DNA of 64,000 nt from an uncultured bacterium. GTDB taxonomy: Bacteria > Acidobacteriota > Thermoanaerobaculia > Multivoradales > JAHZIX01. The translations under genes and the position numbers were made by a program. Positions 6,413-28,154 of this stretch are shown one piece after another. The stretch spans positions 64,001 through 128,000 of the forward strand of contig CBDUPA010000010.1 in the NCBI GenBank assembly GCA_965368975.1. The letters run 5' to 3'. Each line of letters starts with the position of its first letter. Position 1 is the stretch's first letter. Below the pieces are notes generated by a model. It was not told the DNA's origin and made no database searches. It saw only the letters and a program-made list of their open reading frames with translations.

Positions 6413-6460
6413 GACAACACGCTCTCTTTCCTTCGCGAATCCAAGCACTCGCCTGCAGGT

Positions 6461-8914: not shown

Positions 8915-9182
8915 GCACACTCCTACTGCAGGTCTATAGGTGACCGATTCTAAAAGTGGCCCCCTGGAATTGCAATGAGGCACTCGCACTCGTTGGCACT
9001 CACGACCTGAGTACCGACCAGGGCAACACCGGGATGCCGGGCAGAAGCAATGGAGCATACGAATGCTCACGCAGATGAAGCGAAATTAATGCGCAATGAC
9101 GAATAGGAAAGACAAAGAAAAATGCACCCGCTCAGGGTGCATCGAAAAGAGAGAACGCGCCGCGCCGTGGGGGCGTGGCGAT

Positions 9183-9707: not shown

Positions 9708-10153
9708 GATGTCACCTTTCATCAGATCACATAGAGTGCTGGTATCTATCCATCCATCCATCCCACCGGCGGAGCTGCACGCTCCGGCAAGGGCCGGCGT
9801 CAATGGGAAGTTCAACTCCACCCGGCATGCTGTTCATTTGATTGTAGAAGCTGCGGTGCGCCTGTCGACCGAACTGACTGGCGTGTGCCCGCTTCTGTTG
9901 ATTAACACTGTCCGCAAGGCAGTAAACCGGGACAACAATCTACACGAAGTACTTCGCGAAAGCCCACGGTAAACGCACTTCAAGCAAAATATCAGTGGAG
10001 CAGGCTCAAATAGAACACGGAAAGGCGCCTAGCCCCCAGGGAGTGAGTATGCTACACTCACAAAGCATGGTACCTGAGCTGTACCAGCTAAGAAACTCGG
10101 AAAGCGGGTCTCTCACAGGAAATTCGAACCAGACCCGGAAGGAAGGACACAGA

Positions 10154-12838
10154 ATGCACCCCGAAGATCACGACTCCAAACTGCTCTCTTCCGCCGACGA
10201 CAACACCAACGACAACGACAACACAGCGGCCGAAAGCACTGCAGAGACTGCTATCGAAGAGCCAAGCACCGCTGCTCCGATCCACGCAACCATGACCCTG
10301 CCAGTGCTTCCGATGCGCCAGAGCGTGCTCTTCCCGCACGCCACCTCGCCGACCGCGGTCGGCCGAGCCGGCAGCTTGCGAGCGGTCGAGAAGGCACTCA
10401 AGACTTCAGAGAAGCTGATCTTCGTCGTCAGCCAGCGCCAACCCTCGGAGCAGGTCGCGCCGGAAGACCTCTACACCATAGGCACAGTGGCCCGCATCGA
10501 CCAGATCCAGCGCGGCTTGGCTGGCGTGCAGTTACTGCTGCGCGGCCTGCACCGCGGTATCGCGGTCCGCATCCGCAAGGAGGGCGATCAGCTCGAAGCC
10601 GTCCTGCGCCCGGCCGAGGAAATGCAACCGCTCGACGCCCAGGACTCAACCTACCTGGCCCTCACGCGCGAGCTGCAGCAGCGCGCCGCGGAGCTGGGCC
10701 AGAAGTCCGGTCTGCCACGCGAAGCAGTGCAACAGGTGCTCTCCGGGCTCCAGGAGCCCGGCCCCCTGAGCGACGTCATCGCCGGGTACCTGGACATCTC
10801 GACCAGCGAAGCCCAGGAACTGCTCGAGACCCTGTCGATCGAGGAGCGCATGCGGCGCGTGCTCGTCCACGTGCAGCGGCAGATCGCCGTCCTCAGCGCC
10901 CAGGAAGAGATCAAGGACAAGGTGCAGGCTGAACTGGGCGATCGCCAGCGCGAAATCGTCCTGCGCGAGCAGATGAAGGCGATCCAGAAGGAACTCGGCG
11001 GCGAGGACGACGGCGAAGACCTAGAAGAACTGCGCGTCAAGCTCGACGAACTGGATCTCTCCGACGAAGTGCGCAAAGAGGTCGACCGCGAGTTCCGCCG
11101 GTTGTCGCGCCTGGGCCGCGAATCGATGGAATCACAGGTAGTGCGCAACTACCTCGAGACCATCACCGAGCTTCCCTGGTCCGAGCGTAGCGACGAACAG
11201 CTCGACCTGCAGCACGCTCAGGACGTCCTGGACCGCGATCACTACGGCCTCGAGGAGGTCAAGGATCGCGTCCTCGAGTTCCTCGCCGTCCACCAGTTGC
11301 GCCAACGCCGTGAAGAAGCCGCACACGCAGAAGAATCGGCGCAAGCGGAGAAGACAGCACAGGCGGAGAAGGCAGTGCCGACGGACACACAAGCCACCGA
11401 CACCCAAACCTCCCCCAACCTGCGAGCCAGCAAGCGCAGTCCGATCCTGCTGTTCGCTGGCCCTCCCGGCGTCGGCAAGACGTCAGTGGCACGCTCGATC
11501 GCCGACGCCATGAGCCGCAAGTACGTGCGTATCTCGCTGGGCGGCGCCCGCGACGAAGCGGACATCCGCGGTCATCGTCGCACCTACGTCGGCGCCATGC
11601 CGGGACGCATCATCCAGGGCATGAAGCAGGCCGGCACTCGCAACCCCGTCTTCCTGCTGGACGAGATCGACAAGCTCGGCGCCTCCTTCCACGGCGACCC
11701 CTCGGCCGCCCTGCTCGAGGTGCTCGACCCGGCACAGAACAACGCCTTCGTCGACCACTATCTGGGCGTCCCCTTCGACCTTAGCGAGGTCATGTTCATC
11801 GCTACCGCCAACGTCCTCCAGAGCATTCCGGCGCCGCTGCTCGACCGCATGGAAGTGGTCGACTTCAGCGGCTACACGGAAGCCGAGAAATTGGCCATCG
11901 CCCGCCAGTACCTGCTACCACGGCAGCTCGAAGAAAACGGCCTGGACGCACAGCAGCTGACGGTCGACGACAGCGGCCTGGGCCAGATCATCACGTCCTA
12001 CACGCGCGAGGCTGGCGTCCGGCAGCTCGAGCGTCAGCTCGGCAAGCTGTGCCGCAAGGTGGCGCGCAAGGTAGCCGGCAGCGGTACGCAGACCGACAGC
12101 GAGACAGACGCGAGCCCGCAGACCTTCACCATTGGCGGCGACAACGTCACCGACCTGCTCGGCCGCCCGCGGATCTACCCGGAGCAAGCGGCGCGCAAGG
12201 ACCAGGTGGGCGTCGCCACGGGCATGTACTACACCGCCGCTGGTGGCGACATCATTTTTGTCGAGGCCACCGCGATGCCCGGCAAAGGACGCCTGCGGCT
12301 CACCGGCCAGCTCGGAGAGGTGATGCAGGAGTCCGGTCACGCAGCCTGGGCCTATGCGCGAACTCACGCCGATGCCCTGCACATCGACCATGACGACCTG
12401 GCCAACATCGATGTGCACATCCACTGCCCAGCGGGCGCCGTGCCCAAGGACGGACCGTCGGCCGGCGTCGCCATGGCCAGCGCCCTGATCTCCCGGCTGT
12501 CCGGGCGCGCTGCGCGTCATGACGTCGCCATGACCGGCGAGATCACCCTCACCGGCCGCGTGCTGCCGATCGGCGGCGTCAAGGAGAAGGTACTCGGCGG
12601 CGTGCGCGCCGGCATCCACACCTTCCTGCTCCCCAAAGCCAATGGGCCAGACCTGGAAGATCTGCCCGAAGACGTGCGCGCCAAGGTCCGGATTCACTTG
12701 GTCGAGCACCTGGGCGAAGCGCTGGCCATCACGCTGCGCGACGCCAGTTACCGCGAAGGTCGCCTGCTGTTCGACAACGAACGACCGGAAGATGTGGTCC
12801 CCCTGGTGCCCTCGATCCCGTCGCAGCTGTCACACTGA
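10154..12838 (+). CDS. lon: ATP-dependent Lon protease
   Basis: LPVLPMRQSVLFP (Lon N-domain), Walker A GPPGVGKT, GHRRTYVGAMPG, catalytic PKDGPSAG and GGVKEK. Confidence 0.95.
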   Translation: MHPEDHDSKLLSSADDNTNDNDNTAAESTAETAIEEPSTAAPIHATMTLPVLPMRQSVLFPHATSPTAVGRAGSLRAVEKALKTSEKLIFVVSQRQPSEQVAPEDLYTIGTVARIDQIQRGLAGVQLLLRGLHRGIAVRIRKEGDQLEAVLRPAEEMQPLDAQDSTYLALTRELQQRAAELGQKSGLPREAVQQVLSGLQEPGPLSDVIAGYLDISTSEAQELLETLSIEERMRRVLVHVQRQIAVLSAQEEIKDKVQAELGDRQREIVLREQMKAIQKELGGEDDGEDLEELRVKLDELDLSDEVRKEVDREFRRLSRLGRESMESQVVRNYLETITELPWSERSDEQLDLQHAQDVLDRDHYGLEEVKDRVLEFLAVHQLRQRREEAAHAEESAQAEKTAQAEKAVPTDTQATDTQTSPNLRASKRSPILLFAGPPGVGKTSVARSIADAMSRKYVRISLGGARDEADIRGHRRTYVGAMPGRIIQGMKQAGTRNPVFLLDEIDKLGASFHGDPSAALLEVLDPAQNNAFVDHYLGVPFDLSEVMFIATANVLQSIPAPLLDRMEVVDFSGYTEAEKLAIARQYLLPRQLEENGLDAQQLTVDDSGLGQIITSYTREAGVRQLERQLGKLCRKVARKVAGSGTQTDSETDASPQTFTIGGDNVTDLLGRPRIYPEQAARKDQVGVATGMYYTAAGGDIIFVEATAMPGKGRLRLTGQLGEVMQESGHAAWAYARTHADALHIDHDDLANIDVHIHCPAGAVPKDGPSAGVAMASALISRLSGRAARHDVAMTGEITLTGRVLPIGGVKEKVLGGVRAGIHTFLLPKANGPDLEDLPEDVRAKVRIHLVEHLGEALAITLRDASYREGRLLFDNERPEDVVPLVPSIPSQLSH
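11321..11374 (+). repeat. 3x18-bp degenerate in-frame tandem repeat in a Lon insertion (AHAEES/AQAEKT/AQAEKA)
   Basis: gcacacgcagaagaatcg gcgcaagcggagaagaca gcacaggcggagaaggca, followed shortly by TDTQA-TDTQT. Confidence 0.7.
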
Positions 12839-12916
12839 GACCCAAGCGGCACAACTTGAACTGACGGGCACGGGCGAGGAGCCCGATCACGGGCTCCATC
12901 TGCAGCGTCAACACTG

Positions 12917-15900
12917 ATGCTGTACACTGGGGCGCCTAGAGATCGGACTTCTATGCCCTGCCCTTTATACTGGTTGTGCCGCTCCCCATCGCGCTTCGCG
13001 TTCTTGGGTTTCCTCCTGCTGCTGCTGGCCTCACCCACAGCTGCCTTGGAACCCGACCGCCAGGTCACGCAGTACATCCACGACACCTGGCCCGTCACCG
13101 CGGATCTACACAGCGCCGGCCCGATCGAGATTCGCGCGTTGGCCCAGACAGGGGACGGCTTCCTGTGGCTGGGCACCTCGGCCGGCTTGGTCCAGTTCGA
13201 CGGTGTCCGGTTCCAGAGCGTCGACTTCGAGGACGTGCGCTTCGAGCGAACCGCCGAGGGCCACCCAGACGCCTGGGAAATCTATAGCCTGCTCACCGAC
13301 GCCCGCGGCACCCTGTGGATCGGGCATCAGCTCGGCCTGGCCTCACTGACCCCCGACGACCCCAGCCGGCAGCCGCAACGCCACCGCATCCCGAGTCGGC
13401 AGGTGCTGAGTCTGACGCAAAGCGGCCCGGACAGCCTGTGGCTGGGGACACGGCGCAACGGCGCCTCCAAGTACACTCCGCAGCTCGATTCCCTCCGCGA
13501 ATCGGCGGCAGGCGACCACTCGAGCGCCGCCGAGGGCGTGCTGGAACATAGCCTCCTGGAGCCCGTCAGCGTGCCAGCATTGGTCGAGGATCCACGGCGC
13601 CAGCGCCTGTGGCTCGGTACGACCAACGGCCTGACGGAGATCGACTGGAGCCAGCCTGAACCGTCGGTCGTCCGCACCTGGGGCCTCGACGACGGCCTGA
13701 CCACCCCGCAGGTTCAAGCACTCTGCCGTGGCGCCGACGGCAGCTTGTGGATCGGCACACGAACCGGACTGCACCGCCTGCTGCGCGAGAACCTGGAACC
13801 GATCCCCGAATTCGCCGGCACCAGCGTCACGGCAATGTATCGTGACCGCAGCAACGACCTGTGGGTCGGTACCGAGGACCAGGGCGTGTGGCTACTGCGT
13901 ACCGGCACTTGGCAGCAGTTGCCGCTCCCGAGCCGTCTCGATCCAACCACCTCCCCCCGCGTCTCCAGCTTCCTCCAGGACAGCGACGGCAGCCTGTGGA
14001 TCGGCACCGCGGACGCCCAACTGCACCAACTCAAGGACGGCCAGTACCGCAGTTTCGGACCAAGCGAAGGCATGAGCACTATCGGCGCTCGCCACGTCGC
14101 CGAGGACCGCACCAGTGGTGACATCTGGGTGACCACCAATGATGCTCGCCTCAATCTCATCCGGCGACAAAAGGTAGTGCCACTGCCACCGCCTCTGAAG
14201 CGTGCGCTGGAAGACCCGAACAATAACCAGCAGCTGAGCGCACTCTACCAAGCGCCTGACGGACCTCTGTGGATGGGTACACGCGATGGCGTCCTGTGGC
14301 GCTACGAGAACGGTGACCTGACCTCGATCCAGCTCCCTAGCACGGCCTATGGCGAGAAGGCCTGGGCACACACCATCGCACAAGACGCTGACGGCAACCT
14401 CTGGGTCGGCACGCTGCAGGACGGCCTCTTCAGGCTACGCCCGGATGGAACCGGTCATCAGCACTTCACCATCGCCAATACCGAGCACCTACCGCACAAC
14501 ACCATCCGCGTGTTGTTCCTGGACTTCTACCGACGGCTCTGGATCACCACCCTCGACGGTGTCACCTACTATCGTGACGGCCGCTTCGCCAGTCCCAACG
14601 ATCCTCTGCTCGAGCGCCTGCCTCGATTCGTCCACTCCTTCTATGAAGACAGCCAGCACACCCTCTGGATGGGCACCGAGGGTGGCCTCTACTGGCTCCA
14701 CCAGGGCCAGGTCGACTATCTCGATTACAGCCGCGGCCTGTACAACGACATCATCTACGCCATCGCGGCCGACGAGTATGGCCAACTCTGGTTCGGAACC
14801 CAAGCCGGAATCTTTTACATCCAGCAACCTGAGCTCAAGGCCTTGATGAACGGGGAGCAGCAGACCGTCACCTCGATCCCGCTGGCCAACCAGCAAGAAA
14901 TCGAGTGCTATGGCCCCCGTCCCAACATCGGTACCGCGGCACGCGACGGATCGATTTACTTCGCCACCACCAGTTCCCTGGTGCAGATCGATCCAGCCAA
15001 AGTTTCGCCGCCGGCACCACCGCCGATCATCATCGAGTCGATCATCGCCGACGGCGAGGAGCTCCCCCACCAGGAGACCATCCTCCTGTACGCCGGCGTG
15101 CGCAAGCTGGAGATCTTCTTCACCTCTCCTTACCTCAAAGAGCCCGGCCGACTGATCTTCAGCTACAGGATGCAAGGACTGCCACAAGGCGCGACCATCG
15201 CCACCGAACGCAAGGCAGTCTTCACCAACCTGACTCCCGGAGACTACCGCTTCGACGTCTGGGCCGAGCAACTCGACGGCGCCGACACCCCTATCACCTC
15301 GTGGCGGCTGCGCATCGAACCACCCTACTACCAGCGCCCGCCGGTGCAGGCCCTGGCTCTGCTGCTGCTACTGGTTGTCGGCCGCGGCATCTACCGCCTG
15401 CGTCTACAGCAGCTGCTGAGCCGCAACCAGGACCTCGAAGACACGATCGCCGAGCGCACCGCCGAGGTCATCGAGCAACGCGAACAACTGCGCCTGCACA
15501 ACCGGCAACTGGCACACGCCAACCAAGAACTGCAGCACGCCAACGAGCAGCTACAAGACCTCAACCGGCAGAAGGCGGACTTCTTGGCCATCGCTGCCCA
15601 CGACCTGCGCACACCCCTGGTCAACCTCAAAGGCTTCGCCAGCGAGACAGGCCTGCTGCTCGGACGACTTTTCGAGGTCGCCGCACCGGTTCTCGAAGAG
15701 CACGCGCCACACAGCCGCGAGCAGCTGCAAGAACTCCTGCACGAGGAGGCGCGAGAATCGCTCGAGTACATCCACAGCTCGACCGACCGCATGGACGCAT
15801 TGATCAAGGGCATCCTGATGCTGTCGCGCCTCGGGCGGCGCCAGCTGCAACTGGAGAGTGTCGACCTGCAGGAGCTGGCACGCCAGGTCCTGGGCAATCT

Positions 15901-16321
15901 GAGCTACGAGGTCGTGCGCAAGAAAGTGCGCGTCAACGTCGGCTCGCTGCCCAGCGTGACCGCCGATCTGTCCGCGATGGAACAGACGCTGGAAAACTTG
16001 CTGCGCAACGCTGTCAGCTATCTCGACCCGAGCCGTACCGGCGAGGTCGACATCCGCTCCGAACGGCACGCCGACGAAGTACGCGTCCACATCCGTGACA
16101 ATGGCCGCGGTATCGCCCCCAACCAACGCGACAAGGTATTCAAGATCTTTGGCCGCGCGGGGCGCAACGACGACGTGCCCGGTGAAGGCATCGGCCTCGC
16201 CTCTGTGCGCACCCTGATCGAACGTCACGGCGGGCGGATCTGGTTCGAGTCCGAGGTCGGAGTCGGTACCACCTTCACCTTCAGCCTCCCCGATCCCCCC
16301 GTCCGTGCGGTGACGAGCTGA
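12917..16321 (+). CDS. Sensor histidine kinase with periplasmic two-component-regulator beta-propeller and Y_Y_Y domain
   Basis: Many D..G.LW.GT blades, AVFTNLTPGDYRFDV (Y_Y_Y), TM helix, coiled coil, H-box AAHDLRTPL, N-box NLLRNA, DNGRGI, GEGIGLA; true start may be ATG 12953. Confidence 0.92.
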   Translation: MLYTGAPRDRTSMPCPLYWLCRSPSRFAFLGFLLLLLASPTAALEPDRQVTQYIHDTWPVTADLHSAGPIEIRALAQTGDGFLWLGTSAGLVQFDGVRFQSVDFEDVRFERTAEGHPDAWEIYSLLTDARGTLWIGHQLGLASLTPDDPSRQPQRHRIPSRQVLSLTQSGPDSLWLGTRRNGASKYTPQLDSLRESAAGDHSSAAEGVLEHSLLEPVSVPALVEDPRRQRLWLGTTNGLTEIDWSQPEPSVVRTWGLDDGLTTPQVQALCRGADGSLWIGTRTGLHRLLRENLEPIPEFAGTSVTAMYRDRSNDLWVGTEDQGVWLLRTGTWQQLPLPSRLDPTTSPRVSSFLQDSDGSLWIGTADAQLHQLKDGQYRSFGPSEGMSTIGARHVAEDRTSGDIWVTTNDARLNLIRRQKVVPLPPPLKRALEDPNNNQQLSALYQAPDGPLWMGTRDGVLWRYENGDLTSIQLPSTAYGEKAWAHTIAQDADGNLWVGTLQDGLFRLRPDGTGHQHFTIANTEHLPHNTIRVLFLDFYRRLWITTLDGVTYYRDGRFASPNDPLLERLPRFVHSFYEDSQHTLWMGTEGGLYWLHQGQVDYLDYSRGLYNDIIYAIAADEYGQLWFGTQAGIFYIQQPELKALMNGEQQTVTSIPLANQQEIECYGPRPNIGTAARDGSIYFATTSSLVQIDPAKVSPPAPPPIIIESIIADGEELPHQETILLYAGVRKLEIFFTSPYLKEPGRLIFSYRMQGLPQGATIATERKAVFTNLTPGDYRFDVWAEQLDGADTPITSWRLRIEPPYYQRPPVQALALLLLLVVGRGIYRLRLQQLLSRNQDLEDTIAERTAEVIEQREQLRLHNRQLAHANQELQHANEQLQDLNRQKADFLAIAAHDLRTPLVNLKGFASETGLLLGRLFEVAAPVLEEHAPHSREQLQELLHEEARESLEYIHSSTDRMDALIKGILMLSRLGRRQLQLESVDLQELARQVLGNLSYEVVRKKVRVNVGSLPSVTADLSAMEQTLENLLRNAVSYLDPSRTGEVDIRSERHADEVRVHIRDNGRGIAPNQRDKVFKIFGRAGRNDDVPGEGIGLASVRTLIERHGGRIWFESEVGVGTTFTFSLPDPPVRAVTS

Positions 16322-18718
16322 ATGAGACACCAGAGCCGATGCCCCCTGCGCACCTTGCTGCTGCCGACTTTGGTAGTCCTGCTGACTGCCTCGGTGTCCG
16401 GTCCTCTGTGGGCCCTTGACCCCGAGACGCCGCTGAGCGAGCTCCAGATCGACACCTGGACTCCCCAGGAGGGCCTGCCCAACAGCTCTGTGCCTGCGAT
16501 CGCCCAGGACACGCCGGGGTATATGTGGATCGGTACCGAACAGGGGCTCACCCGCTTCGACGGCCTCAACTTCCACACCCTGACCACCAAAGACAGTCGC
16601 GCACTACCCAGCAACACCATTTCGGCCATCACGCCGAGTCCGGACGGCAGCCTGTGGATTGGAACCCGCTACGGTCTGGCTCTGCTGCAGCAAGGCCGCC
16701 TGCTGGCGCCGCGCAACACCATGCTGCAGACCCCAATCAACGAAATCGAGCTGGACCTCGATCAGCAGCGGCTGTGGATCGCGTCCCTCAGCGGCCTGGC
16801 GGAGTACGACACAGAGACACAGACCGTCACCCGTCGCTACGAGCGTATAGAGAAGCTGCACGAGTTGACCGGACACCAGGAGCAACGCAGCACGACGCTG
16901 GCCGTGTTGCCCGACGACGACATTCATGCCCTGCTCATGGACGACGACGGCAGCCTGTGGCTGGGAACCAACAACTCCGGCCTCTTGTTGCTGCGTGACA
17001 GCAGAATCACCATCATTCCCACCGAACCCTCGAACAATCGCCCGTTGCTGATTCTCTCCTTGCAGCGACATCCGGTCCACGGCCTGCTGGCCGGCACGGT
17101 CGGGCAGGGTGTCTGGCAGCTGCGCGACGGCAACCTGGTTCGCTTCGAGCCGACTCTCGATACGCTGCTGATCGCCTTCGAAATGCTGACCGACCGCGAC
17201 GAGAACCTGTGGATAGCGGGCTACAACCAGATTGCGCGTGTGACCCGCGAGGGTCTCGCCGAAGTCATCGCCCCCCCCGTAGGACAGGCTGTCTACGCCC
17301 TGGCCGAAGACCTGCGTGGCGACATCTGGTACGGCACGACCGAAGGCGGCCTCAGCCGCGTGCGCGACCCACGCCGACGCCAGGGCCCGAGCACCCAGGG
17401 TGCCGAAGCACCGCTACCTCGGCTGGAACAGATCCTGGTCAACCGGGCAGAGATCTCCGCGGATGCCCTCAAGAGCCCCGTGTCCGGCAACATCGACCTG
17501 GCTTTCCGCTTCAGCATCTTGGCCCTGCGCGACCAAGAACAGCTGCGTGTCGGCTGCCGCCTGCAAGGGCTCGAAGACGAATGGCGTGCCCTGGGACCTC
17601 GCCGCGGTGTCGACTACACCAACGTACCACCAGGCTCCTACACGTTCGAGATCGCCGTCCGGCGCCAGGGCGAAGACGACGAAGTGACGCTCAGCCACGC
17701 CTTCCTCATCCCACGGCCGATCTACCGGACTTGGCCCTTCTACCTCGCGCTGCTCGCTTTCGCTGCCTTCCTCAGTCGTACCTTCTACCGCTTGCGGGTA
17801 CGGCGCGTCTTGCAGCGCAAGCGGCGTCTCGAGGCCAAGGTCGAGGCTCGGAAGAACGAGATCCTGAACCAGACGAAGCGTCTGGCCGACCTGCAAGAAC
17901 AGCGCGAGCAAGCGCACCTGCAGCTGCGCCAAGCCAACCGTGAACTCAAGACCTTGAACCGTGAGAAGACCGACTTCCTGGCGATCGCCACTCACGACCT
18001 GCGCACTCCACTGCTCAACGCCAAAGGCTTCGCCGGTGAGCTGCGGGTCGCCCTCGACGAGGTGCGCGCCGTGCTGCAGCCCGCGCTGGAGAACCTGTCC
18101 GAGCGGGATCGCCAGGAGATCGAGGCGATCCTCGACCAAGAGCTGCCCGAAACCATGGGCTTCATCGACTCGGCCGCCGACAGCATGACCCGGCTGATCG
18201 ATCCCATCCTCAAGCTGTCCCGCTTCAGCCGCTGCGAGTTGACCTTCTTGGAACTCGACCTCGACACGCTGGCAAGAAGTGTCAAACTCGCCCTCGAGCC
18301 TCTACTCGAAGAATCCAAGGCGCGCTTGGTACTCGAGCCGCTACCAACCATCCAGGCGGACCCGGCGGCCTTGGAAGAAGTTCTACGCCAGATGTTGCGC
18401 AACGCCCTGCACTACCTCGACCCCCACCGTCCCGGCGAAGTCCGCGTCTACGGTGACCGCGGCAAAGACACCACGACAATTCACGTGCGCGACAATGGCG
18501 TCGGCATCTCCGCCGAGCAAGAAGCCAAGGTCTTTCGCCTCTTCGGCCGCGGCGGCCAGACCAGCGCTCCCGGTCGCGGCATGGGCCTGGCCTATGTGCG
18601 CACACTGATCCAGCGCCACGGTGGCCACGTCTGGTACGTGTCGCAGCCCAAGCGCGGTACCACCTTCAGCTTCAGCATCCCCAATCAACCCCTCAAGCCC
18701 GAAGAGCATCTCATCTAA
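16322..18718 (+). CDS. Second, shorter beta-propeller sensor histidine kinase (paralogue)
   Basis: ATG directly follows the upstream TGA; signal peptide, GLPNSSV..IAQD..GYMWIGT, YTNVPPGSYTFE, ATHDLRTPL, DNGVGI, GRGMGLA. Confidence 0.92.
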   Translation: MRHQSRCPLRTLLLPTLVVLLTASVSGPLWALDPETPLSELQIDTWTPQEGLPNSSVPAIAQDTPGYMWIGTEQGLTRFDGLNFHTLTTKDSRALPSNTISAITPSPDGSLWIGTRYGLALLQQGRLLAPRNTMLQTPINEIELDLDQQRLWIASLSGLAEYDTETQTVTRRYERIEKLHELTGHQEQRSTTLAVLPDDDIHALLMDDDGSLWLGTNNSGLLLLRDSRITIIPTEPSNNRPLLILSLQRHPVHGLLAGTVGQGVWQLRDGNLVRFEPTLDTLLIAFEMLTDRDENLWIAGYNQIARVTREGLAEVIAPPVGQAVYALAEDLRGDIWYGTTEGGLSRVRDPRRRQGPSTQGAEAPLPRLEQILVNRAEISADALKSPVSGNIDLAFRFSILALRDQEQLRVGCRLQGLEDEWRALGPRRGVDYTNVPPGSYTFEIAVRRQGEDDEVTLSHAFLIPRPIYRTWPFYLALLAFAAFLSRTFYRLRVRRVLQRKRRLEAKVEARKNEILNQTKRLADLQEQREQAHLQLRQANRELKTLNREKTDFLAIATHDLRTPLLNAKGFAGELRVALDEVRAVLQPALENLSERDRQEIEAILDQELPETMGFIDSAADSMTRLIDPILKLSRFSRCELTFLELDLDTLARSVKLALEPLLEESKARLVLEPLPTIQADPAALEEVLRQMLRNALHYLDPHRPGEVRVYGDRGKDTTTIHVRDNGVGISAEQEAKVFRLFGRGGQTSAPGRGMGLAYVRTLIQRHGGHVWYVSQPKRGTTFSFSIPNQPLKPEEHLI

Positions 18719-19186: not shown

Positions 19187-19423
19187 ATGTCTGCTACCCT
19201 GACTCATTTTCTGATCGAAGTCGGAGAAAACCCTCACAAGATGATCGAGCTGCAGCGTAACCCAGAAGAAATTCTGCGCGCTGCCGGCCTGCCGGCCGAC
19301 GCGGCCGACGCCGTGCTCCACCGTGATGCTGAACGCATCACGCATCTGCTGTCCGGCGAGGCCGAAGTCCTGCCGGCGATCTTCCAGATCACCACCGCCC
19401 TGGAGGATCTGCACGCTAGCTGA
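19187..19423 (+). CDS. Split-borosin RiPP precursor peptide (borosin-binding domain plus C-terminal core)
   Basis: Strong GAGGAGGT RBS. LTHFLIEVGENP..MIELQRNPEEILRAAGLP...DAVLHRD matches the helical leader pattern I recall for SonA-type precursors. C-terminal core EVLPAIFQITTALEDLHAS. Adjacent to a borosin methyltransferase. Confidence 0.85.
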   Translation: MSATLTHFLIEVGENPHKMIELQRNPEEILRAAGLPADAADAVLHRDAERITHLLSGEAEVLPAIFQITTALEDLHAS

Positions 19424-19618: not shown

Positions 19619-20476
19619 GTGAGTGAAGACAACGGCAAGTCGGCAAGAGTTCAAACAGCAGGAAGTTTGTGTGTGGTCGGTACCGGCATACGTTCGGTCG
19701 GGCAGACCACGATTGAAACCAGAAACCTGATCGAGCAGGCCCGCGTTCTCATGTATCTCGTGGCCGATCCGATCACCGAAGCGTGGATCCGCAAGCTCAA
19801 TCCGCGCGCCGAATCGCTGGCGGACAGTTATCTCGACGGCCGGCGGCGCATCGAGACATACCGCGAGATCGTCGAGAGGATGCTGACACGCGTGCGCGAA
19901 GGCCACGATGTCTGTGCCGTGTTCTATGGCCATCCGGGCGTCTTCGTCTATCCGTCGCACGCCGCCATCCGGCAGGCACGCGAAGAAGGCTTCCAGGCTT
20001 TCATGCTGCCCGGCGTCTCCGCCGAGGACTGCCTGTTCGCCGACCTGGGCGTCGATCCTGGCGATCAGGGCTGCCAGAGCTTCGAAGCCACCGATTTCGT
20101 GCTGCGGCAGCGCCGCTTCGATCCCACCAGTCACCTCGTGATCTGGCAGATCGGCGTTCTCGGCAAGGTCTCCCACACGGCTGCCGAACGCCGCCGCCAG
20201 GGAAGCCTCGACGTGCTGGTCGACAGCCTCAGCCCGCACTATGACGACGACCACCCGGTCACCGTCTACGAGGCGCCGCAGTATGCCGTCTGCGCACCGG
20301 TGATCCACACGATGCCCCTGCGGGAGCTGCGCGACTCCGAGGTATCGGTGCTGTCAACCCTCTACGTATCACCGCTACCCGCGCGGCCCAACGATCCGGT
20401 CGTCTTGGAGCGGCTGGGACTACGACCGATGGAACCATCGACACCAGTCGAGACATCGACCCAGCCCGAAGCCTGA
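19619..20476 (+). CDS. Borosin alpha-N-methyltransferase (SAM-dependent, TP-methylase fold)
   Basis: GSLCVVGTGI, Y..G..R..TY, VFYGHPGVF, MLPGVSAEDCLFADLGVDP, GCQSFEATDF, HLVIWQIG are hallmark OphMA/SonM motifs; GTG start with AGGAG RBS. Confidence 0.92.
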   Translation: MSEDNGKSARVQTAGSLCVVGTGIRSVGQTTIETRNLIEQARVLMYLVADPITEAWIRKLNPRAESLADSYLDGRRRIETYREIVERMLTRVREGHDVCAVFYGHPGVFVYPSHAAIRQAREEGFQAFMLPGVSAEDCLFADLGVDPGDQGCQSFEATDFVLRQRRFDPTSHLVIWQIGVLGKVSHTAAERRRQGSLDVLVDSLSPHYDDDHPVTVYEAPQYAVCAPVIHTMPLRELRDSEVSVLSTLYVSPLPARPNDPVVLERLGLRPMEPSTPVETSTQPEA

Positions 20477-20534: not shown

Positions 20535-21854
20535 TCAAGCCGCCAAGATTTCGCGCAGGATGGCGATGTTGTCGCGGTGGCCGGTGAGGCGGGCGGTAAC
20601 TCTACCGCGCACGGGGAAACCGAGCAGGTAGAGATCGCCCACGATGTCCAGGATCTTGTGGCGCACGAACTCGTCCGGGAAGCGGAGCTCGGTGTTGATG
20701 ACGTTGTCTTCGCCCACCAGGATGAAGTTATCGAGCCGGCCGCCGGAGCCGAGGCCCAGCTCGTTGAGCATCTTGACGTCCTTCATGAAACCGAAGGTGC
20801 GGGCCGGCGCGATCTCGCGCAGATAAGTATCGAAATCGCTCAGTTCAAAAGCGAAGAACTGGTCGCCGATCGGCGACGGATACCGCAGCTGGTAGGAGAC
20901 CGCGAAGCCATCGTACGGTTCGAGGGTCAGGCCTTTCTCGCCGTCGCCGCCGACATGGTAGGGACGATCGACCACCAGTTCGCGCCGCGGCGCTGCCTGG
21001 TCGACGACTCCGACCTCTTCCAGCTTGCGGCAGAACTCCAGCGCCGAGCCATCGAGAACGGGGATCTCGCCGTGCACCTTGATCAGTAGGTTGGTAACGC
21101 CGGCCGCGTGCAGGGCAGACAGCAAGTGCTCGACGGTGCGAATGCTCTCCCCACCGCGGCTCAACGTGGTCGCGTAGTCGGTCTCGGCGACTTCGTCGAC
21201 ATGAGCAGGAATGAGGGTGCCGCTGGGAATCGTCAGCATGTGGATGCCGCTGTCGGGCGGCAGCGGCTGCAGCACCATGCCGGTACGCGTGCCCGAGTGC
21301 AGCCCGAGGCCGTAGATCACCGTGTTCTCGCGCAGCGTCCGCTGCGGCAGCTCGCCAACACGTACCTGGGGCAGGCTGCGTGGCGCCTGCAACTTCGGCT
21401 GCAGCGTCTTCCAGGTCCCGGTATCGAGTGCTGTCGCCTCCAGCTCAGCCGCATCCTCATCGACTGCTGGCAGTTCGCCGGACGCGTCCCGCAACGTATC
21501 TTCGACGGCACCGACGATGCGCTCGTAGGACAGCGGCTTCTCGATGTAGTCGATGGCCCCGAGCTTGAGTGCACGCACCGCGGTCGACGTGGTGCCGTGC
21601 CCCGAGATCATGATCACGAGGGCCTCGGGATCGAGCTGGCGCAGGGCACGCAGCGTTTCGAGGCCATCGCGATCGGGAAGCCAGATATCCAGGAAGACGA
21701 GACAGGGCCGATGCTCGCGGTAGAGCTCGATCGCCTCTTCTCCACTGGCAGTGGTGAGAGCTCGGTAGCCCTCGTCTTCGAGGATCTGTGAGACGGTGGT
21801 CAGAATACCCGGCTGGTCGTCAACGATCAGGATTTGCTTACTCTCGGCGCTCAT
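20535..21854 (-). CDS. lpxC: Response-regulator receiver domain fused to UDP-3-O-acyl-GlcNAc deacetylase
   Basis: REC: IVDD, FLDIWLP, ISGHG, IEKP. LpxC: QRTL, GLHSG, TVEHLLSAL, LDGSA, ARTFGF, EFVRHKILDIVGDL, TGH. Confidence 0.9.
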   Translation of the reverse strand: MSAESKQILIVDDQPGILTTVSQILEDEGYRALTTASGEEAIELYREHRPCLVFLDIWLPDRDGLETLRALRQLDPEALVIMISGHGTTSTAVRALKLGAIDYIEKPLSYERIVGAVEDTLRDASGELPAVDEDAAELEATALDTGTWKTLQPKLQAPRSLPQVRVGELPQRTLRENTVIYGLGLHSGTRTGMVLQPLPPDSGIHMLTIPSGTLIPAHVDEVAETDYATTLSRGGESIRTVEHLLSALHAAGVTNLLIKVHGEIPVLDGSALEFCRKLEEVGVVDQAAPRRELVVDRPYHVGGDGEKGLTLEPYDGFAVSYQLRYPSPIGDQFFAFELSDFDTYLREIAPARTFGFMKDVKMLNELGLGSGGRLDNFILVGEDNVINTELRFPDEFVRHKILDIVGDLYLLGFPVRGRVTARLTGHRDNIAILREILAA

Positions 21855-21920
21855 AGAGCGGAGAATATCATCCAGCCGCGCTGAAACCGCGCTCCGGCTC
21901 GGCAGGCTGTCACGGCGTCT

Positions 21921-26200: not shown

Positions 26201-26615
26201 CGGAACTCCAGGAGTGAGAGAGGAGGAGAGCACGCAGGACAGCCACGGTGCCGCGGCCGAAGTCTACTACGAACATCGGAGGAAGGGGTTGCGGCCAAGT
26301 CACGAGCTCTGTGCCAGGGCGCACTTCGCTGTAATGAATCCACGGGATCCGCGTACTTGGAGTGTGAGGTGCCGGGCATGGATCGTGCTCCCTAGGGAGC
26401 TGGCTGCGGGGCCACCGAGCCCATGCCCGGCGCCTCCGTTTCTACCATGAGATTCGGCGAACCGTGGCGACTCGGATGTGCCCTCCGTGGAGGTGACACC
26501 TTCGAGGCTCCCGCGCGAGCCCACGAGCCGCTTGCCGCTCACAGAGGCAAGAAAGACTGGTATTCTTGATAGTGACTCAACATTGGCTTGCAACAAGCCG
26601 GAGGAGGCCCCTGCC

Positions 26616-28154
26616 ATGCGCCCCTCCAACTCCGTCAGGTTTTCCGAACACTTCCACGTCCAACCCGAACACAGTGACGATTGGTTCGACCCGATCCTCA
26701 CCCTCGACACCCCCCTCTTCGTCGACCCACTGCTGCTGCTCCGGGAGTCGAACACCGCGAGCGACAACTTGCTGCGCGGAGCCCACGACGACGTGCTGGA
26801 CTTCACGGCCGCCGTCCACTCGTTGATCGAGGAAGCCAGGCACGACGAGGCCGAGTCGCACCAGCTCGGCGCTCTCGGCAAGCAGGCCGAGCAAGCAATC
26901 CGGCTCCTGCGCCTGCCCGATCCCAAAGAAACCTGTCTCGGCTTCACCGGCTCGGGCACCGAAGGTACCCCTCTCGGCCCGCCGCTGGCCGAGGACACCG
27001 CGCTCGCCATCTGGGACACCCAGAACACCTGGGACCAGAGCAACGGCCAGGGCAGCGGGCAGCCTTCGCAGCTGCCGCACCTCGAGGCCATCTCACTGCT
27101 CGAACTGGGCCTTGGCGCCGACTTCATCAGTGACATCACGGTCTCGCTGCTGCGCGGGCGTCTGGCCACCTACACGCTGGACGTCTGCCGCCGCCACGAC
27201 ATCCCGGTGCGCAAGAGCTACTTCGAGCACGGCCATTTCGATCCCACGAGCCGCAGCTGGCAGCCCCGGACTTTCCAGCTCCCCTGGAATCCCTTCAACC
27301 GGCACCCCGTGTTGTTGGTCCCCAAGGACCTGCTGCGCGACCAACCGAGGATCAACCCCGCCGACTTCTCGGCTTGGGTGCACGAGCACGAAGCTCACAC
27401 CTTGGAGACCTTCTTTGCTCCGCGCACCGTGCCGGCGAAGCTGACCAAGCCGGAAACCATCGACCTCATCCACTTCCAGCCGACCTTGTTGCGCCGCTAC
27501 GTGGCGCACGTCGAAGCGGCCAGTAACAGCACTCGACCCTACGATCTGCAGCGGGACCCGGCGGGAGTGTACGGCTGGTATGAAGCCACCGGGCGGTACC
27601 TACAGACGCACCCGGTCGACCTGCGGCGCCCAGCGCTGGCGGTCGTCCTGAGCCGCCTGCACGAGCACTTCCGGCGCTTCATCGAAGACGATGGGGGGCA
27701 CCGCCTGCTGTGGAACCCTGGTAAGCAACGACCTCACAGCGAGCAGGTGTCCCGTCGTGTCTACCTGGGCTTGGTCCGCCATGCCTGCGCCGCCCAGGGG
27801 ATGACCATTCACAACGAGGCCAAGTTGGGCAGCGGCATCGTCGACTTCGACTTCAGCCCCGGAGCACTCCCCGCCGAACTCGATCGGGGCCTATTGCTGG
27901 CCAAACACGCACGCAACACTCGCTTCTGGAGTGGTTTGAGCCGCAAGCCGGTGCCCAAGGCGTGGCTACGCGAAGTACAGCACGGCACCTTCGTGGTCAT
28001 GCTGTTCAACGACAAGGACCTGGCGCGCCTGCCATGGATCACCGACCAGGTGCAGCAGCTGGCGTGGCAATTGCCGTACGACATCGAGATCGTACCGATC
28101 GACGGCCGCGGATCGACACCGGCGGCATGTGCCGAGAGCGCTACCGTGCACTGA
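26616..28154 (+). CDS. Conserved hypothetical protein with a C-terminal degenerate PD-(D/E)xK-like region
   Basis: GGAGGAGG RBS; DWFDPILTLDTPLFVDPLLL, ETCLGFT, GADFISDIT, PVLLVPKDLLR; C-terminal EAKLGSGIVDFDFS...LLLAKHARN..FW.GL. Confidence 0.7.
   Translation: MRPSNSVRFSEHFHVQPEHSDDWFDPILTLDTPLFVDPLLLLRESNTASDNLLRGAHDDVLDFTAAVHSLIEEARHDEAESHQLGALGKQAEQAIRLLRLPDPKETCLGFTGSGTEGTPLGPPLAEDTALAIWDTQNTWDQSNGQGSGQPSQLPHLEAISLLELGLGADFISDITVSLLRGRLATYTLDVCRRHDIPVRKSYFEHGHFDPTSRSWQPRTFQLPWNPFNRHPVLLVPKDLLRDQPRINPADFSAWVHEHEAHTLETFFAPRTVPAKLTKPETIDLIHFQPTLLRRYVAHVEAASNSTRPYDLQRDPAGVYGWYEATGRYLQTHPVDLRRPALAVVLSRLHEHFRRFIEDDGGHRLLWNPGKQRPHSEQVSRRVYLGLVRHACAAQGMTIHNEAKLGSGIVDFDFSPGALPAELDRGLLLAKHARNTRFWSGLSRKPVPKAWLREVQHGTFVVMLFNDKDLARLPWITDQVQQLAWQLPYDIEIVPIDGRGSTPAACAESATVH

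What the first reader, a model, noticed from the sequence alone, without database searches (positions are those of the whole stretch)
20535..21854. Receiver domain fused to LpxC: possible phosphorelay control of lipid A synthesis
Seen: a canonical NtrX-like receiver (DD, phospho-Asp in LDIWLP, S, K) joined in frame to a complete LpxC that retains its Zn ligands (TVEH, HKILD) and catalytic Glu/His (VEH, TGH). Knowledge: LpxC catalyses the committed step of lipid A synthesis, and in model bacteria is controlled by proteolysis rather than by a fused receiver. Inference: LPS flux is directly gated by His-Asp phosphorylation, with the nearby orphan kinases as candidate donors. The gene follows an RND pump on the same strand.
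Basis: partly seen in the sequence, partly recalled or inferred. Interest (0 to 1): 0.78.

Follow-up and report, generated by a model that had tools for sequence, protein, structure and literature searches.

The report
Receiver-fused LpxC of an NtrYX pathway

Summary
Window 20535-21854 (-) encodes a 439-aa protein: an intact receiver (REC), a variable Pro-rich linker and a full LpxC. It is the only LpxC in a 99.3%-complete genome that has LpxA, LpxB, LpxK and the Kdo transferase. It is not an artefact: the fusion occurs in 28 of 101 genomes of the class and 26 of 401 of the phylum.

Fused LpxC domains form one clade apart from stand-alone LpxCs (UFBoot 100). That clade includes ~700-aa REC-AAA+-(HTH)-LpxC proteins, i.e. 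an NtrX/NtrC-type regulator fused to LpxC.

In another phylum the fusion lay directly downstream of DUF4390 and an NtrY-like kinase in 20 of 20 loci.

Non-fused relatives carry sigma54-promoter-lpxC-kinase-sigma54 regulator operons. Fused genes lack that promoter and the C-terminal tail.

Its candidate donors (neighbouring kinases) and the RND link are not conserved. The better donor is an orphan DUF4390-NtrY-like kinase on another contig. No description of the fusion was found in 8 literature searches.

The parts
20535..21854 (-). REC-LpxC fusion gene, 439 aa, ATG at 21854, stop codon 20535-20537
   Evidence: ORF list; Pfam and NCBIfam; the only PF03331 match in the genome; the only tblastn match to the LpxC part
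21504..21833 (-). Receiver (REC) domain, residues 8-117. Acidic pocket D12/D13, phospho-acceptor D56 (codon 21687-21689), S84, switch Y103, K106
   Evidence: Pfam Response_reg E 1.7e-30. The quintet is invariant in 147 of 147 fused sequences; Y103 is Y in 135 and F in 12. The alpha1 consensus is nearly the same as in lpxC-operon NtrX-like regulators. AF2 pLDDT in these blocks is 86-98, apart from 76 for residues 1-10
21345..21503 (-). Inter-domain linker, residues 118-170. Variable and indel-rich, with a semi-conserved L138-E139 and a Pro-rich PPPxLP segment (157-162)
   Evidence: Column entropy is about 3 bits with gaps, except at the named positions. AF2 block pLDDT is 69/56/69/86 over residues 121-160, with two short predicted helices at 134-143 and 146-154. 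In the long relatives this slot holds a degenerate sigma54-type AAA+ module with or without HTH_8
20544..21344 (-). LpxC (UDP-3-O-acyl-GlcNAc deacetylase) domain, residues 171-437. E242/H243 (codons 21126-21131), T353/F354, H399-K400-D403-D407 (20634-20660), H426 (20577-20579). Only 2 residues follow the domain
   Evidence: Pfam LpxC E 5.6e-83, full length. TIGR00325 above its cutoff. The listed residues are invariant in 58 of 58 diverse fused sequences, except T353 which is at least 90% conserved. Tail after the domain: median 3 aa in 61 fused short forms against 31 aa in 56 stand-alone LpxCs
21855..21920 (-). 66-nt spacer between the RND stop codon and the fusion's start. No sigma54 -24/-12 site and no obvious Shine-Dalgarno sequence
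   Evidence: Sequence read. The sigma54 scan found no site in G000 within 350 nt upstream

Best explanation
The gene encodes a response regulator whose output domain is the enzyme LpxC. It belongs to an old, monophyletic family that arose when an NtrX/NtrC-type regulator (REC-AAA+-HTH) of an NtrYX-family two-component system became fused to the N-terminus of LpxC. The window's 439-aa form is the reduced version, in which the AAA+ and HTH modules have been lost and only REC, a flexible linker and LpxC remain.

Inferred: Asp56 of the receiver is phosphorylated by the genome's NtrY-like histidine kinase. That kinase is an orphan paired with a DUF4390 (PlrP-like) gene at G000:C2:374039-376339, outside the window. 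Phosphorylation changes LpxC output post-translationally. This replaces the control used by non-fused relatives, in which a sigma54 promoter in front of lpxC is presumably driven by the co-operonic sigma54 regulator, and in which LpxC carries a C-terminal tail.

Most likely mode (inferred by analogy with CheB, recalled): the unphosphorylated receiver restrains LpxC and phosphorylation relieves this. Kinase signal would then still mean more lipid A, as in the ancestral activator circuit. The sign of the effect is the least certain step.
For: (1) Sole, intact enzyme. There is one PF03331 match in a 99.32%-complete genome and one tblastn match. LpxB, the LpxA C-terminal domain, LpxK and the Kdo transferase are each present once. 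The catalytic and Zn residues are invariant in 58 of 58 sequences. In the class sample the fusion is the only LpxC in 21 of the 28 genomes that have it.

(2) Receiver under selection. The quintet is invariant in 147 of 147 sequences. In the diverse set of 58, D56 is kept in 57 and D12 in 56.

(3) Single origin from a regulator. The careful LpxC tree separates 44 fused from 35 stand-alone domains with UFBoot 100 / SH-aLRT 94, in 100% of 200 bootstrap trees. The quick tree of 132 rows gives the same split, SH-aLRT 97. Among the best 150 global cluster representatives there are 12 REC-AAA-LpxC, 3 REC-AAA-HTH-LpxC and 5 AAA(-HTH)-LpxC.

(4) Receiver ancestry. The 75 fused receivers and the 27 receivers of lpxC-operon regulators form one group that excludes all 33 other receivers of G000 (SH-aLRT 88). 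Of the 43 best receiver-only matches in the class, 41 are the regulator 3-4 kb downstream of a stand-alone lpxC. The alpha1 consensus is nearly identical.

(5) Kinase link. In the phylum of G464 an NtrY-like kinase lies directly upstream on the same strand in 20 of 20 loci, and DUF4390 precedes it in 15 of 20. Three of the 20 carry the short REC-LpxC form. In G464 itself the fusion's start overlaps the kinase's stop by 8 nt.

(6) G000's kinase. It is the reciprocal best match of these kinases: 360 bits against 183 for the next hit, and E 1.9e-120 against 4.5e-32. In 5 of 5 fusion-only genomes it has neither a regulator nor an lpxC within about 5 kb.

(7) Change of control mode. A sigma54 -24/-12 site precedes the stand-alone lpxC in 30 of 36 loci (1.2-1.5 expected) but the fused gene in only 3 of 39 (1.2 expected). 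The C-terminal tail has a median of 31 aa in stand-alone forms, 3 in fused short forms and 4 in fused long forms. All 15 long forms lack GAFTGA and the Walker-B Glu.

(8) Docking. For REC against LpxC the verdict is 'weak support': score 0.37, best of 3 controls 0.00. The mark was reached by 58 of 80 solved complexes and 2 of 110 mismatched pairs, but at 0.60 or under by only 7 of those 80 and by both mismatches that passed. The runs agree in at least 94% of contacts and the partner's pLDDT is at least 83. My own alignment was used, so these counts hold only roughly. AF2 gave pTM 0.76 and mean pLDDT 91.

(9) Literature. The sigma54 regulator DVU2934 has lpxC as its single target, and in S. fumaroxidans lpxC lies directly upstream of the orthologous regulator operon (PMC3333781, passages). 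Loss of ntrYX raises lpxC mRNA 8.8-fold and raises LPS in R. sphaeroides (PMC7240162, passages). DUF4390 (PlrP) is described as a third component of NtrYX-family systems (PMC13001219, abstract).
Against: No experiment bears on phosphorylation or its effect.

The docking score is weak by the tool's own calibration, and no interface was reported.

The linker is variable and of low confidence, so no rigid coupling is evident.

In Acidobacteriota no gene is conserved next to the fusion: no flanking family occurs in more than 6 of 28 genomes. The kinase assignment in G000 therefore rests on orthology and on operons in another phylum.

G000 also has an orphan NtrX-like sigma54 regulator (C13). Its receiver is as similar to the G464 fused receiver (111 bits) as the window's own receiver is (109 bits). 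That regulator may be the kinase's main or only partner.

The group joining fused and operon receivers has only moderate support (SH-aLRT 88, quick method, 125 columns).

One fused representative has Asn at the acceptor position (P0144).

The sign of regulation is a guess. In R. sphaeroides loss of NtrYX raises lpxC expression, which is the opposite sign to an activator circuit.
Confidence: 0.6

Rival explanations
1. The receiver controls the amount of LpxC rather than its catalysis. The phosphorylation state exposes or hides a degradation signal (regulated proteolysis by FtsH, Lon or Clp), taking over the job of the C-terminal tail that stand-alone LpxCs carry.
For: Fused forms have lost the C-terminal tail: median 3-4 aa against 31 aa. 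In E. coli the C-terminal end of LpxC is needed for FtsH degradation (the title of Fuhrer et al. 2006 was seen in the reference list; the content is recalled). The 2025 review frames LpxC control as mainly control of its level (PMC12444477; only passages seen). A Lon gene lies at 9995-12838 in the window and about 3 kb from the fusion in L027.
Against: Lon is next to the fusion in only 2 of 28 genomes. No adaptor or degron motif was identified. Receiver-enzyme fusions more often act through allostery or oligomerisation (recalled). The weak docking signal fits direct contact equally well.
Confidence: 0.22
2. The neighbouring propeller/Y_Y_Y histidine kinases (12917-16321 and 16322-18718) are the phosphodonors. 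The RND pump and REC-LpxC would then form one envelope-stress module.
For: Both kinases lack a partner regulator nearby and lie within 2-8 kb of the fusion. The fusion starts 66 nt after the RND gene on the same strand.
Against: None of the 27 relatives has these kinases, the RND pump or the MFP beside the fusion. There are only partial matches to a generic kinase C-terminus in 4 loci, and no flanking family occurs in more than 6 of 28 genomes. The receiver's alpha1 matches that of NtrX-like regulators paired with NtrY-like kinases. In another phylum the fusion is operonic with an NtrY-like kinase in 20 of 20 loci.
Confidence: 0.07
3. The receiver is a phosphate sink or a relic. It may accept phosphate and so tune the NtrY-like kinase's other output, but LpxC activity and level are unaffected.
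For: The linker is flexible and variable. The docking support is only weak. G000 keeps a separate NtrX-like regulator.
Against: A sink does not need to be tethered to an essential enzyme. Yet the tether has been kept across several phyla, and it survived at least 6 independent losses of the AAA+ module in which REC and LpxC were always retained together. The fused genes lost the sigma54 promoter and the tail, i.e. the other candidate controls. There are 7 LpxC positions specific to fused forms.
Confidence: 0.08
4. The fusion is an assembly or gene-calling artefact.
For: None found.
Against: There is one uninterrupted frame. All 120 listed relatives from independent assemblies have both domains. 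The fusion is present in 28 of 101 genomes of the class and 26 of 401 of the phylum.
Confidence: 0.01

Closest known systems
Stand-alone LpxC (PF03331 / TIGR00325), e.g. the P. aeruginosa, A. aeolicus and E. coli enzymes with solved structures
   Same: Full-length catalytic domain, 279 bits to Pfam and 227.7 bits to TIGR00325, above its cutoff. E 2.3e-52 to 6moo_A. All catalytic and Zn residues are kept. It is the sole copy in a genome with the rest of the Raetz pathway.
   Different: It carries an N-terminal receiver plus linker of 170 aa and lacks the 17-38 aa C-terminal tail of most stand-alone forms. It belongs to a separate clade of fused LpxCs. It has no sigma54 promoter, unlike the stand-alone lpxC of its relatives.
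NtrX / NtrC-type sigma54 response regulators of NtrYX-family systems, including the lpxC-linked regulator DVU2934 of D. vulgaris
   Same: NtrX is the best NCBIfam match of the receiver. The receiver groups with those of the regulators encoded in lpxC-kinase-regulator operons and shares their alpha1. Long relatives still carry the AAA+ and HTH_8 modules and sit in DUF4390-ntrY operons. DVU2934 targets lpxC (PMC3333781).
   Different: The window protein has no AAA+ and no HTH domain and cannot bind DNA or sigma54. Its output is an enzyme. It scores 106.6 bits to the NtrX model, whose cutoff is 600. Even the long fused forms have lost GAFTGA and the Walker-B Glu in 15 of 15 cases.
CheB and other receiver-enzyme response regulators (RpfG, PleD/WspR) - recalled from general knowledge, not tested by any search
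   Same: An N-terminal receiver, a flexible linker and a C-terminal enzyme. This is the expected logic of phosphorylation-dependent relief of inhibition, or of oligomerisation.
   Different: The output is a biosynthetic Zn-amidase of lipid A synthesis, not a signalling enzyme. No occlusion of the active site has been shown; the docking support is only weak.
Bifunctional LpxC-FabZ fusion (NCBIfam NF009667)
   Same: It is another natural LpxC fusion. The LpxC part matches at 192.1 bits.
   Different: That fusion is C-terminal and metabolic (a dehydratase), not regulatory. Its cutoff of 465 bits is not reached.

Membership tests
LpxC (UDP-3-O-acyl-GlcNAc deacetylase; PF03331, TIGR00325) | Full-length match above the curated cutoffs | tested here: met
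   Pfam 279 bits (cutoff 27), profile 1-267 of 268. TIGR00325 227.7 bits (cutoff 187.25).
LpxC (UDP-3-O-acyl-GlcNAc deacetylase; PF03331, TIGR00325) | Zn ligands (His, His, Asp) and the catalytic Glu/His pair. The E. coli numbering E78, H79, H238, D242, H265 is recalled | tested here: met
   E242, H243, H399, D403 and H426, plus K400 and D407, are invariant in 58 of 58 fused sequences. They align to the same columns in solved LpxCs (alignment).
LpxC (UDP-3-O-acyl-GlcNAc deacetylase; PF03331, TIGR00325) | Acts in a Raetz pathway: the other pathway genes are present and there is no other LpxC | tested here: met
   One PF03331 match in G000. LpxB, PF13720 (LpxA C-terminal domain), LpxK and PF04413 are each present once. 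LpxD and LpxH/I/G were not searched.
LpxC (UDP-3-O-acyl-GlcNAc deacetylase; PF03331, TIGR00325) | Deacetylase activity | not testable with these tools
   Needs an enzyme assay or complementation.
Response-regulator receiver domain (PF00072) | Domain match and the conserved quintet (two acidic residues, the acceptor Asp, Ser/Thr, Lys) | tested here: met
   105.9 bits (cutoff 30.2). D12, D13, D56, S84 and K106 are invariant in 147 of 147 sequences.
Response-regulator receiver domain (PF00072) | A cognate histidine kinase | tested here: inconclusive
   None is adjacent in G000 or in 27 Acidobacteriota relatives. An NtrY-like kinase lies directly upstream on the same strand in 20 of 20 loci of another phylum. 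Its orthologue in G000 is an orphan on C2.
Response-regulator receiver domain (PF00072) | Phosphorylation of the acceptor Asp | not testable with these tools
   Needs biochemistry.
NtrX / NtrC-type sigma54 enhancer-binding response regulator | Sigma54-interaction AAA+ domain with GAFTGA and Walker A/B motifs | tested here: not met
   The window protein has no Sigma54_activat match. Its slot is a 53-aa linker. Long relatives have the domain, but GAFTGA and the Walker-B Glu are each present in 0 of 15.
NtrX / NtrC-type sigma54 enhancer-binding response regulator | C-terminal HTH_8 DNA-binding domain | tested here: not met
   Absent from the window protein. It is present or vestigial in some long relatives.
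NtrX / NtrC-type sigma54 enhancer-binding response regulator | Receiver of the NtrX lineage | tested here: met
   NtrX is the best NCBIfam receiver match. The receiver falls in one group with the lpxC-operon NtrX-like regulators, SH-aLRT 88. The alpha1 is shared.
CheB-like receiver-inhibited enzyme (works-like comparison) | The receiver packs on the catalytic domain and occludes the active site | tested here: inconclusive
   Complex prediction gave weak support: 0.37 against a best control of 0.00, and no contacts were reported. AF2 pTM is 0.76.

The most novel reading that the evidence does not exclude
NtrYX-family two-component systems have, in several phyla, a direct enzymatic output. The NtrX-derived receiver is welded to LpxC, and the kinase (with its periplasmic DUF4390 partner) sets lipid A flux post-translationally, with no transcription step. 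In at least one phylum this appears to be the only LpxC, and therefore the main way in which outer-membrane lipid synthesis is set. The link between NtrYX and the cell envelope seen in Proteobacteria would then be the transcriptional remnant of an old, direct NtrYX-LpxC coupling. The degenerate AAA+ ring of the long forms would serve as a phosphorylation-driven assembly scaffold for LpxC.
Probability: 0.35. Interest if true: 0.88.

Novelty: new variant of a known kind. Interest (0 to 1): 0.75.

Why it matters
[quoted passage not shown] According to a 2025 review, its known regulation is mainly control of protein level by proteolysis in Enterobacteria (PMC12444477; only passages seen, and it contains no occurrence of 'receiver' or 'fusion').

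A natural LpxC carrying its own phospho-receiver would be a new mode of control of outer-membrane biogenesis: direct, fast, and wired to a membrane sensor. Three reasons make this worth pursuing.

- It gives the poorly understood NtrYX family a concrete, assayable biochemical output. That could explain why NtrYX mutants have envelope and LPS phenotypes (PMC7240162), and why a sigma54 regulator targets lpxC in Desulfovibrio (PMC3333781).
- It is a clean 'Rosetta-stone' case. A regulator fused to its own target gene's product, then lost its DNA-binding and ATPase parts at least six times.
- The system is tractable: one soluble 439-aa protein, one candidate kinase, and a standard deacetylase assay.

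Tried and rejected
Synteny as a route to the kinase in Acidobacteriota. tblastn of the 13 G000 neighbours against 27 relatives' loci and all-against-all clustering of flanking ORFs found nothing conserved. This line was dropped in favour of orthology and other phyla.

Genome-contig scan with alignment A1. It was useful only as an entry to G463-G465.

The look-up of sequencing runs. No RNA holder is listed. Two soil-metagenome DNA runs hold a share of 0.05 each.

Fused-specific LpxC positions (G192, L198, H249, K259, C275, L379, T388) could not be mapped to a surface and are offered only as leads.

In the f52 clade a kinase-sigma54 regulator pair precedes the fusion in 4 of 7 loci. Its receiver groups with other G000 receivers, not with the fused ones, so I do not count it as the cognate pair.

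I considered whether the 53-aa linker is a recognisable AAA+ remnant. Neither Pfam nor BLAST detected one.

I did not search for LapB/YciM, FtsH, LpxD or LpxH in G000.

Supplementary files of the papers were not opened. Table S9 and the figures of PMC3333781 might list the Acidobacterium orthologue and the motif.

Counts include genomes flagged unpublished. G004 is one of the 72 stand-alone-only genomes and one of the 41 adjacent regulators. G241 and G146 are stand-alone-only genomes in the phylum sample. No conclusion depends on them.
Full report
OBSERVATION. The window holds one uninterrupted ORF at 20535..21854 on the minus strand (439 aa, ATG start). Pfam finds a receiver domain on residues 8-117 (E 1.7e-30) and a full-length LpxC domain on residues 171-437 (E 5.6e-83, profile 1-267 of 268). 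NCBIfam's lpxC equivalog model is passed (227.7 bits, cutoff 187.25). The best receiver match is NtrX, at 106.6 bits, far below that model's whole-protein cutoff of 600. The closest solved structures are LpxC enzymes (6moo_A, E 2.3e-52) and NtrC-family receivers.

IS IT REAL, AND IS IT THE WORKING LpxC? The window is G000:C10:64001-128000, from a 7.13-Mb genome in 59 contigs that is 99.32% complete. A six-frame search with the LpxC family finds exactly one match, this gene. tblastn with the LpxC part also finds only this gene. LpxB, the LpxA C-terminal domain, LpxK and the Kdo transferase are each present once. The organism therefore has a Raetz pathway whose committed step can only be supplied by this fusion.

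In the 5.8-billion-protein collection, all 120 listed relatives (64-76% identical) carry both Pfam domains. Where they are named they come from Acidobacteria or Thermoanaerobaculia MAGs, and they are annotated simply as LpxC. An assembly artefact is excluded.

DISTRIBUTION.
- Class sample (101 genomes, G000 included). 28 have a full-length match: 21 have the fusion alone and 7 also have a stand-alone LpxC. 72 have only a stand-alone LpxC. One (G013, 94% complete) has no LpxC match.
- Phylum sample (401 genomes). 26 have the fusion. Twelve are from the window's class. The others are all 3 sampled genomes of family f22, 1 of 3 of f25, and all 10 of f52. The f52 copies are only 43-45% identical to the query.
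- Global library of 50%-identity representatives. The best 150 hits comprise 83 plain LpxCs, 44 REC-LpxC (many are fragments), 12 REC-AAA-LpxC, 3 REC-AAA-HTH-LpxC, 5 AAA(-HTH)-LpxC that are probably N-terminally truncated, 2 multi-receiver proteins and 1 split LpxC hit.

THE LONG RELATIVES AND THE ORIGIN OF THE FUSION. Pfam on ten representatives shows proteins of 650-736 aa with Response_reg, Sigma54_activat, AAA_lid_14 and a C-terminal LpxC. An example is P0123: REC 6-114, Sigma54_activat 138-300 at E 2.6e-34, LpxC 459-726. A search with P0147 finds many such proteins. Several also have HTH_8. Their sources name them either LpxC or NtrX, and they come from MAGs labelled Candidatus Tectomicrobia, Nitrospinae and others. 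Close relatives at 78-93% identity lack the AAA+ module.

A maximum-likelihood tree of the LpxC domain (79 rows, LG+C20+F+G4, careful search) puts all 44 fused domains on one side of a branch and all 35 stand-alone domains on the other. Support is UFBoot 100 / SH-aLRT 94, in 100% of 200 bootstrap trees. Long and short forms are interleaved, with at least 6 changes forced by well-supported branches. The 132-row quick tree gives the same split at SH-aLRT 97. The root is not inferred. The simplest reading is one fusion of an NtrX/NtrC-type regulator to LpxC, followed by repeated loss of the AAA+ and HTH modules. The window's protein is such a reduced form.

In all 15 long representatives the GAFTGA loop and the Walker-B Glu are gone. 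The stand-alone operon regulator of G070 keeps both. The AAA+ module of the fusions is therefore unlikely to activate sigma54.

WHAT THE NON-FUSED RELATIVES DO. In 25 of 27 stand-alone lpxC loci of the class, lpxC is followed on the same strand by a ~960-aa kinase (HAMP, HisKA, HATPase, weak NtrY_N) and then by a sigma54 regulator (REC, Sigma54_activat, HTH_8). The same order occurs in 2 of 9 loci from other classes. NtrX is the regulator's best NCBIfam match, at 481 bits, below the cutoff of 600.

A sigma54-type -24/-12 site (TGGCAC-N5-TTGCW, at most 2 mismatches, GG and GC fixed) lies within 350 nt upstream of the stand-alone lpxC in 30 of 36 loci. In most it sits 21-60 nt before the estimated start. 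Expectation is 1.2 loci from shuffles and 1.5 from the density of such sites across the loci. Upstream of fused genes it occurs in only 3 of 39 loci (1.2 expected), and not in G000. In the six genomes that have both genes and were examined, the stand-alone copy has the site and the fused copy does not.

This matches the experimental report that the sigma54 regulator DVU2934 of D. vulgaris has lpxC as its single target, has orthologues in Acidobacterium, and in S. fumaroxidans is preceded by lpxC (PMC3333781, passages read).

Stand-alone LpxCs also carry a tail of median 31 aa (range 4-38, n=56) after the catalytic domain. Fused short forms have a median of 3 (0-13, n=61) and long forms 4 (0-15, n=15). 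The E. coli tail is reported to be required for FtsH degradation; I saw only the title of that paper in a reference list, and the content is recalled.

THE RECEIVER. D12, D13, D56, S84 and K106 are invariant in 147 of 147 close fused sequences. The switch residue 103 is Tyr in 135 and Phe in 12. In 58 diverse sequences, D56 is replaced once (Asn in P0144) and D12 twice (Glu in P0180 and P0183).

A receiver tree of 139 rows puts the 75 fused receivers and the 27 receivers of lpxC-operon regulators in one group. That group excludes all 33 other receivers of G000 and the 4 regulators that neighbour the fusion in f52. Support is moderate (SH-aLRT 88, quick method, 125 columns). Independently, 41 of the 43 best receiver-only matches in the class sample are the regulator 3-4 kb downstream of a stand-alone lpxC; the exceptions are G022 and G060.

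Helix alpha1, the main kinase-docking surface (recalled knowledge), reads DDEPGILTtLs.IL.DEGy in the fused forms and DDEpGIRetLgqIL.DEGy in the operon regulators.

THE KINASE. Around the fusion nothing is conserved in Acidobacteriota. The RND pump, the MFP, the two propeller/Y_Y_Y kinases and the methylase-like gene of the window are absent beside the fusion in 27 relatives. No flanking ORF family occurs in more than 6 of 28 genomes.

The link comes from elsewhere. In the MAG G464, the genes on one strand are DUF4390 (E 2.6e-26), then an NtrY-like kinase (NtrY_N, HAMP, PAS, HisKA, HATPase), then a 710-aa REC-AAA+-(HTH_8)-LpxC whose start overlaps the kinase's stop by 8 nt. In that genome's phylum, 49 of 51 species genomes have a match at E <= 1e-60, and 33 match over essentially all 710 residues. 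Each matching genome has a single match, except G494, where the match is split into two pieces.

I fetched 20 loci from that phylum. The kinase is directly upstream on the same strand in 20 of 20, either overlapping the fusion or separated by at most about 340 nt. DUF4390 precedes the kinase in 15 of 20; four loci show no hit and one is cut by a contig end. Three of the 20 (L198-L200) carry the short REC-LpxC form in the same slot.

DUF4390 (PlrP) is described as a third component of a subset of NtrYX-family systems that 'always' colocalises with ntrYX homologues (PMC13001219, abstract read).

G000 has exactly such a DUF4390-kinase pair at C2 (L021: kinase 6039-8339, DUF4390 8255-9007). It is followed by a DcuC transporter, with no regulator nearby. 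This kinase is the best match of the G464 kinase (360 bits against 183). Its best match in G070 is the lpxC-operon kinase (E 1.9e-120 against 4.5e-32). Orthologues are kept in the four other fusion-only genomes I examined (G061, G041, G078, G074). In all five genomes the kinase has no lpxC and no sigma54 regulator within about 5 kb.

A caveat applies. G000 also has an orphan NtrX-like sigma54 regulator next to a DegP-like protease on C13. Its receiver is as similar to the G464 fused receiver as the window's own receiver is (111 against 109 bits). The kinase may serve both, or only that regulator.

STRUCTURE. AF2 with a 58-row alignment gives mean pLDDT 91 and pTM 0.76. Both domains are confident. 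The linker blocks over residues 121-160 score 69/56/69/86, with two short helices predicted. The linker is variable in sequence and length apart from L138-E139 and a PPPxLP segment.

A docking test of REC (1-124) against LpxC (166-439) returned 'weak support': score 0.37 (runs 0.43, 0.37, 0.30) against a best control of 0.00. The mark was reached by 58 of 80 solved complexes and by 2 of 110 mismatched pairs. At 0.60 or under, however, only 7 of those 80 reached it, as did both mismatches that passed. The runs agree in at least 94% of contacts and the partner's pLDDT is at least 83. My own alignment was used, so these counts hold only roughly, and no contacts were reported. This is compatible with a contact between the domains but does not establish one.

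HOW IT MOST LIKELY WORKS.
Shown:
- a sole, catalytically intact LpxC;
- an intact receiver of the NtrX lineage;
- membership of a monophyletic fused family;
- in another phylum, a position for that family directly downstream of an NtrY-like kinase;
- loss of the sigma54 promoter and of the C-terminal tail in fused genes.
Inferred:
- the NtrY-like kinase on C2 phosphorylates D56;
- this modulates LpxC post-translationally, replacing the transcriptional control of lpxC that non-fused relatives use.

I favour relief of inhibition on phosphorylation, because the ancestral circuit is an activator and because of the CheB precedent (recalled). Control of stability is a serious rival (0.22). The opposite sign is also possible, since loss of NtrYX raises lpxC mRNA 8.8-fold in R. 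sphaeroides, reported there as an indirect effect (PMC7240162).

COMPARISON AND NOVELTY. The protein is a member of the LpxC family and of the receiver family; all sequence-level criteria are met. It is not an NtrX: it has no AAA+ domain and no HTH, and it falls below the model's cutoff. It works like a receiver-enzyme response regulator.

I made eight literature searches: LpxC with 'receiver domain'; with 'response regulator' and Acidobacteria; with 'output domain'; with NtrX; with 'fused' and 'domain architecture'; with sigma-54; with 'REC domain'; and DUF4390 with NtrY. None found a description of a receiver-LpxC or NtrX-LpxC fusion. The 2025 review 'The regulation of lipid A biosynthesis' contains no occurrence of 'receiver' or 'fusion' (find mode).

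The library searched excludes most subscription journals, and the architecture is visible in public domain annotations. 'Undescribed' therefore means 'not found in these searches'. I rate the finding a new variant of a known kind: a response regulator with an enzymatic output, and a new mode of LpxC control.

VERDICT. Interest 0.75.

Noticed in passing
L014-L020, L054-L073, L085-L093 (stand-alone lpxC loci of Acidobacteriota): A sigma54-type -24/-12 promoter (TGGCAC-N5-TTGCW) sits just upstream of the stand-alone lpxC in 30 of 36 loci (1.2-1.5 expected). This includes 3 of the 7 loci from other classes that have no adjacent kinase-regulator pair (L089, L092, L093). lpxC therefore seems to be a sigma54-dependent gene across much of the phylum.
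   Followed up: partly
L181-L200 and L178 (phylum of G464): In 49 of 51 species genomes of this unnamed phylum the only strong LpxC match is a regulator-LpxC fusion. In 20 of 20 sampled loci it lies directly downstream of an NtrY-like kinase, and DUF4390 precedes the kinase in 15 of 20. I did not check whether these genomes have any second, divergent LpxC.
   Followed up: partly
window 19187-19423 (+) and 19619-20476 (+): A 78-aa ORF with no family match is followed by a 285-aa protein of the tetrapyrrole-methylase fold (PF00590, E 1.8e-20; only a weak match to the YabN N-terminal part in NCBIfam). The pairing recalls split borosin-type peptide N-methyltransferase systems. That resemblance is recalled, not tested.
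   Followed up: no
window 9995-18718 (+): A Lon protease gene (9995-12838) is followed by two tandem histidine kinases with Reg_prop/Y_Y_Y beta-propeller sensor parts (12917-16321 and 16322-18718; the second starts right at the first one's stop). Neither has a receiver or an adjacent regulator.
   Followed up: partly
G000:C13:134708-137768 (L022 5708-8768, minus strand): An orphan NtrX-like sigma54 regulator (459 aa; NtrX is its best NCBIfam match at 440 bits) lies immediately downstream of a DegP/HtrA-like protease with two PDZ domains, with no kinase nearby. It may be the relocated regulator of the dismantled lpxC-kinase-regulator operon.
   Followed up: partly
L079-L082 (family f52 of the phylum sample): In 4 of 7 f52 loci a kinase-sigma54 regulator pair lies 0.7-4 kb upstream of the REC-LpxC gene on the same strand. 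Its receiver does not group with the fused receivers.
   Followed up: partly
C-termini of stand-alone LpxC in L016-L019, L054-L062, L067-L071: Many stand-alone LpxCs of the class share a tail that begins with a P-E-x-W-E/T-L/W-like motif right after the catalytic domain, and several end in an Ala/Leu/Gly-rich terminus. All fused forms lack it. Its function is unknown.
   Followed up: no
window 26300-28154: Upstream of the MFP gene there are two long overlapping ORFs on opposite strands (289 aa on the minus strand, 558 aa on the plus strand). Neither has a Pfam match at E <= 0.001, so the expected outer-membrane factor of the RND system was not identified.
   Followed up: no
P0137, P0332-P0334 (relatives of P0147): Proteins 78-93% identical to a 735-aa REC-AAA-HTH-LpxC protein are only 438-497 aa long. 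They keep REC, with or without HTH_8, plus LpxC. This is a very recent, independent deletion of the AAA+ module.
   Followed up: no
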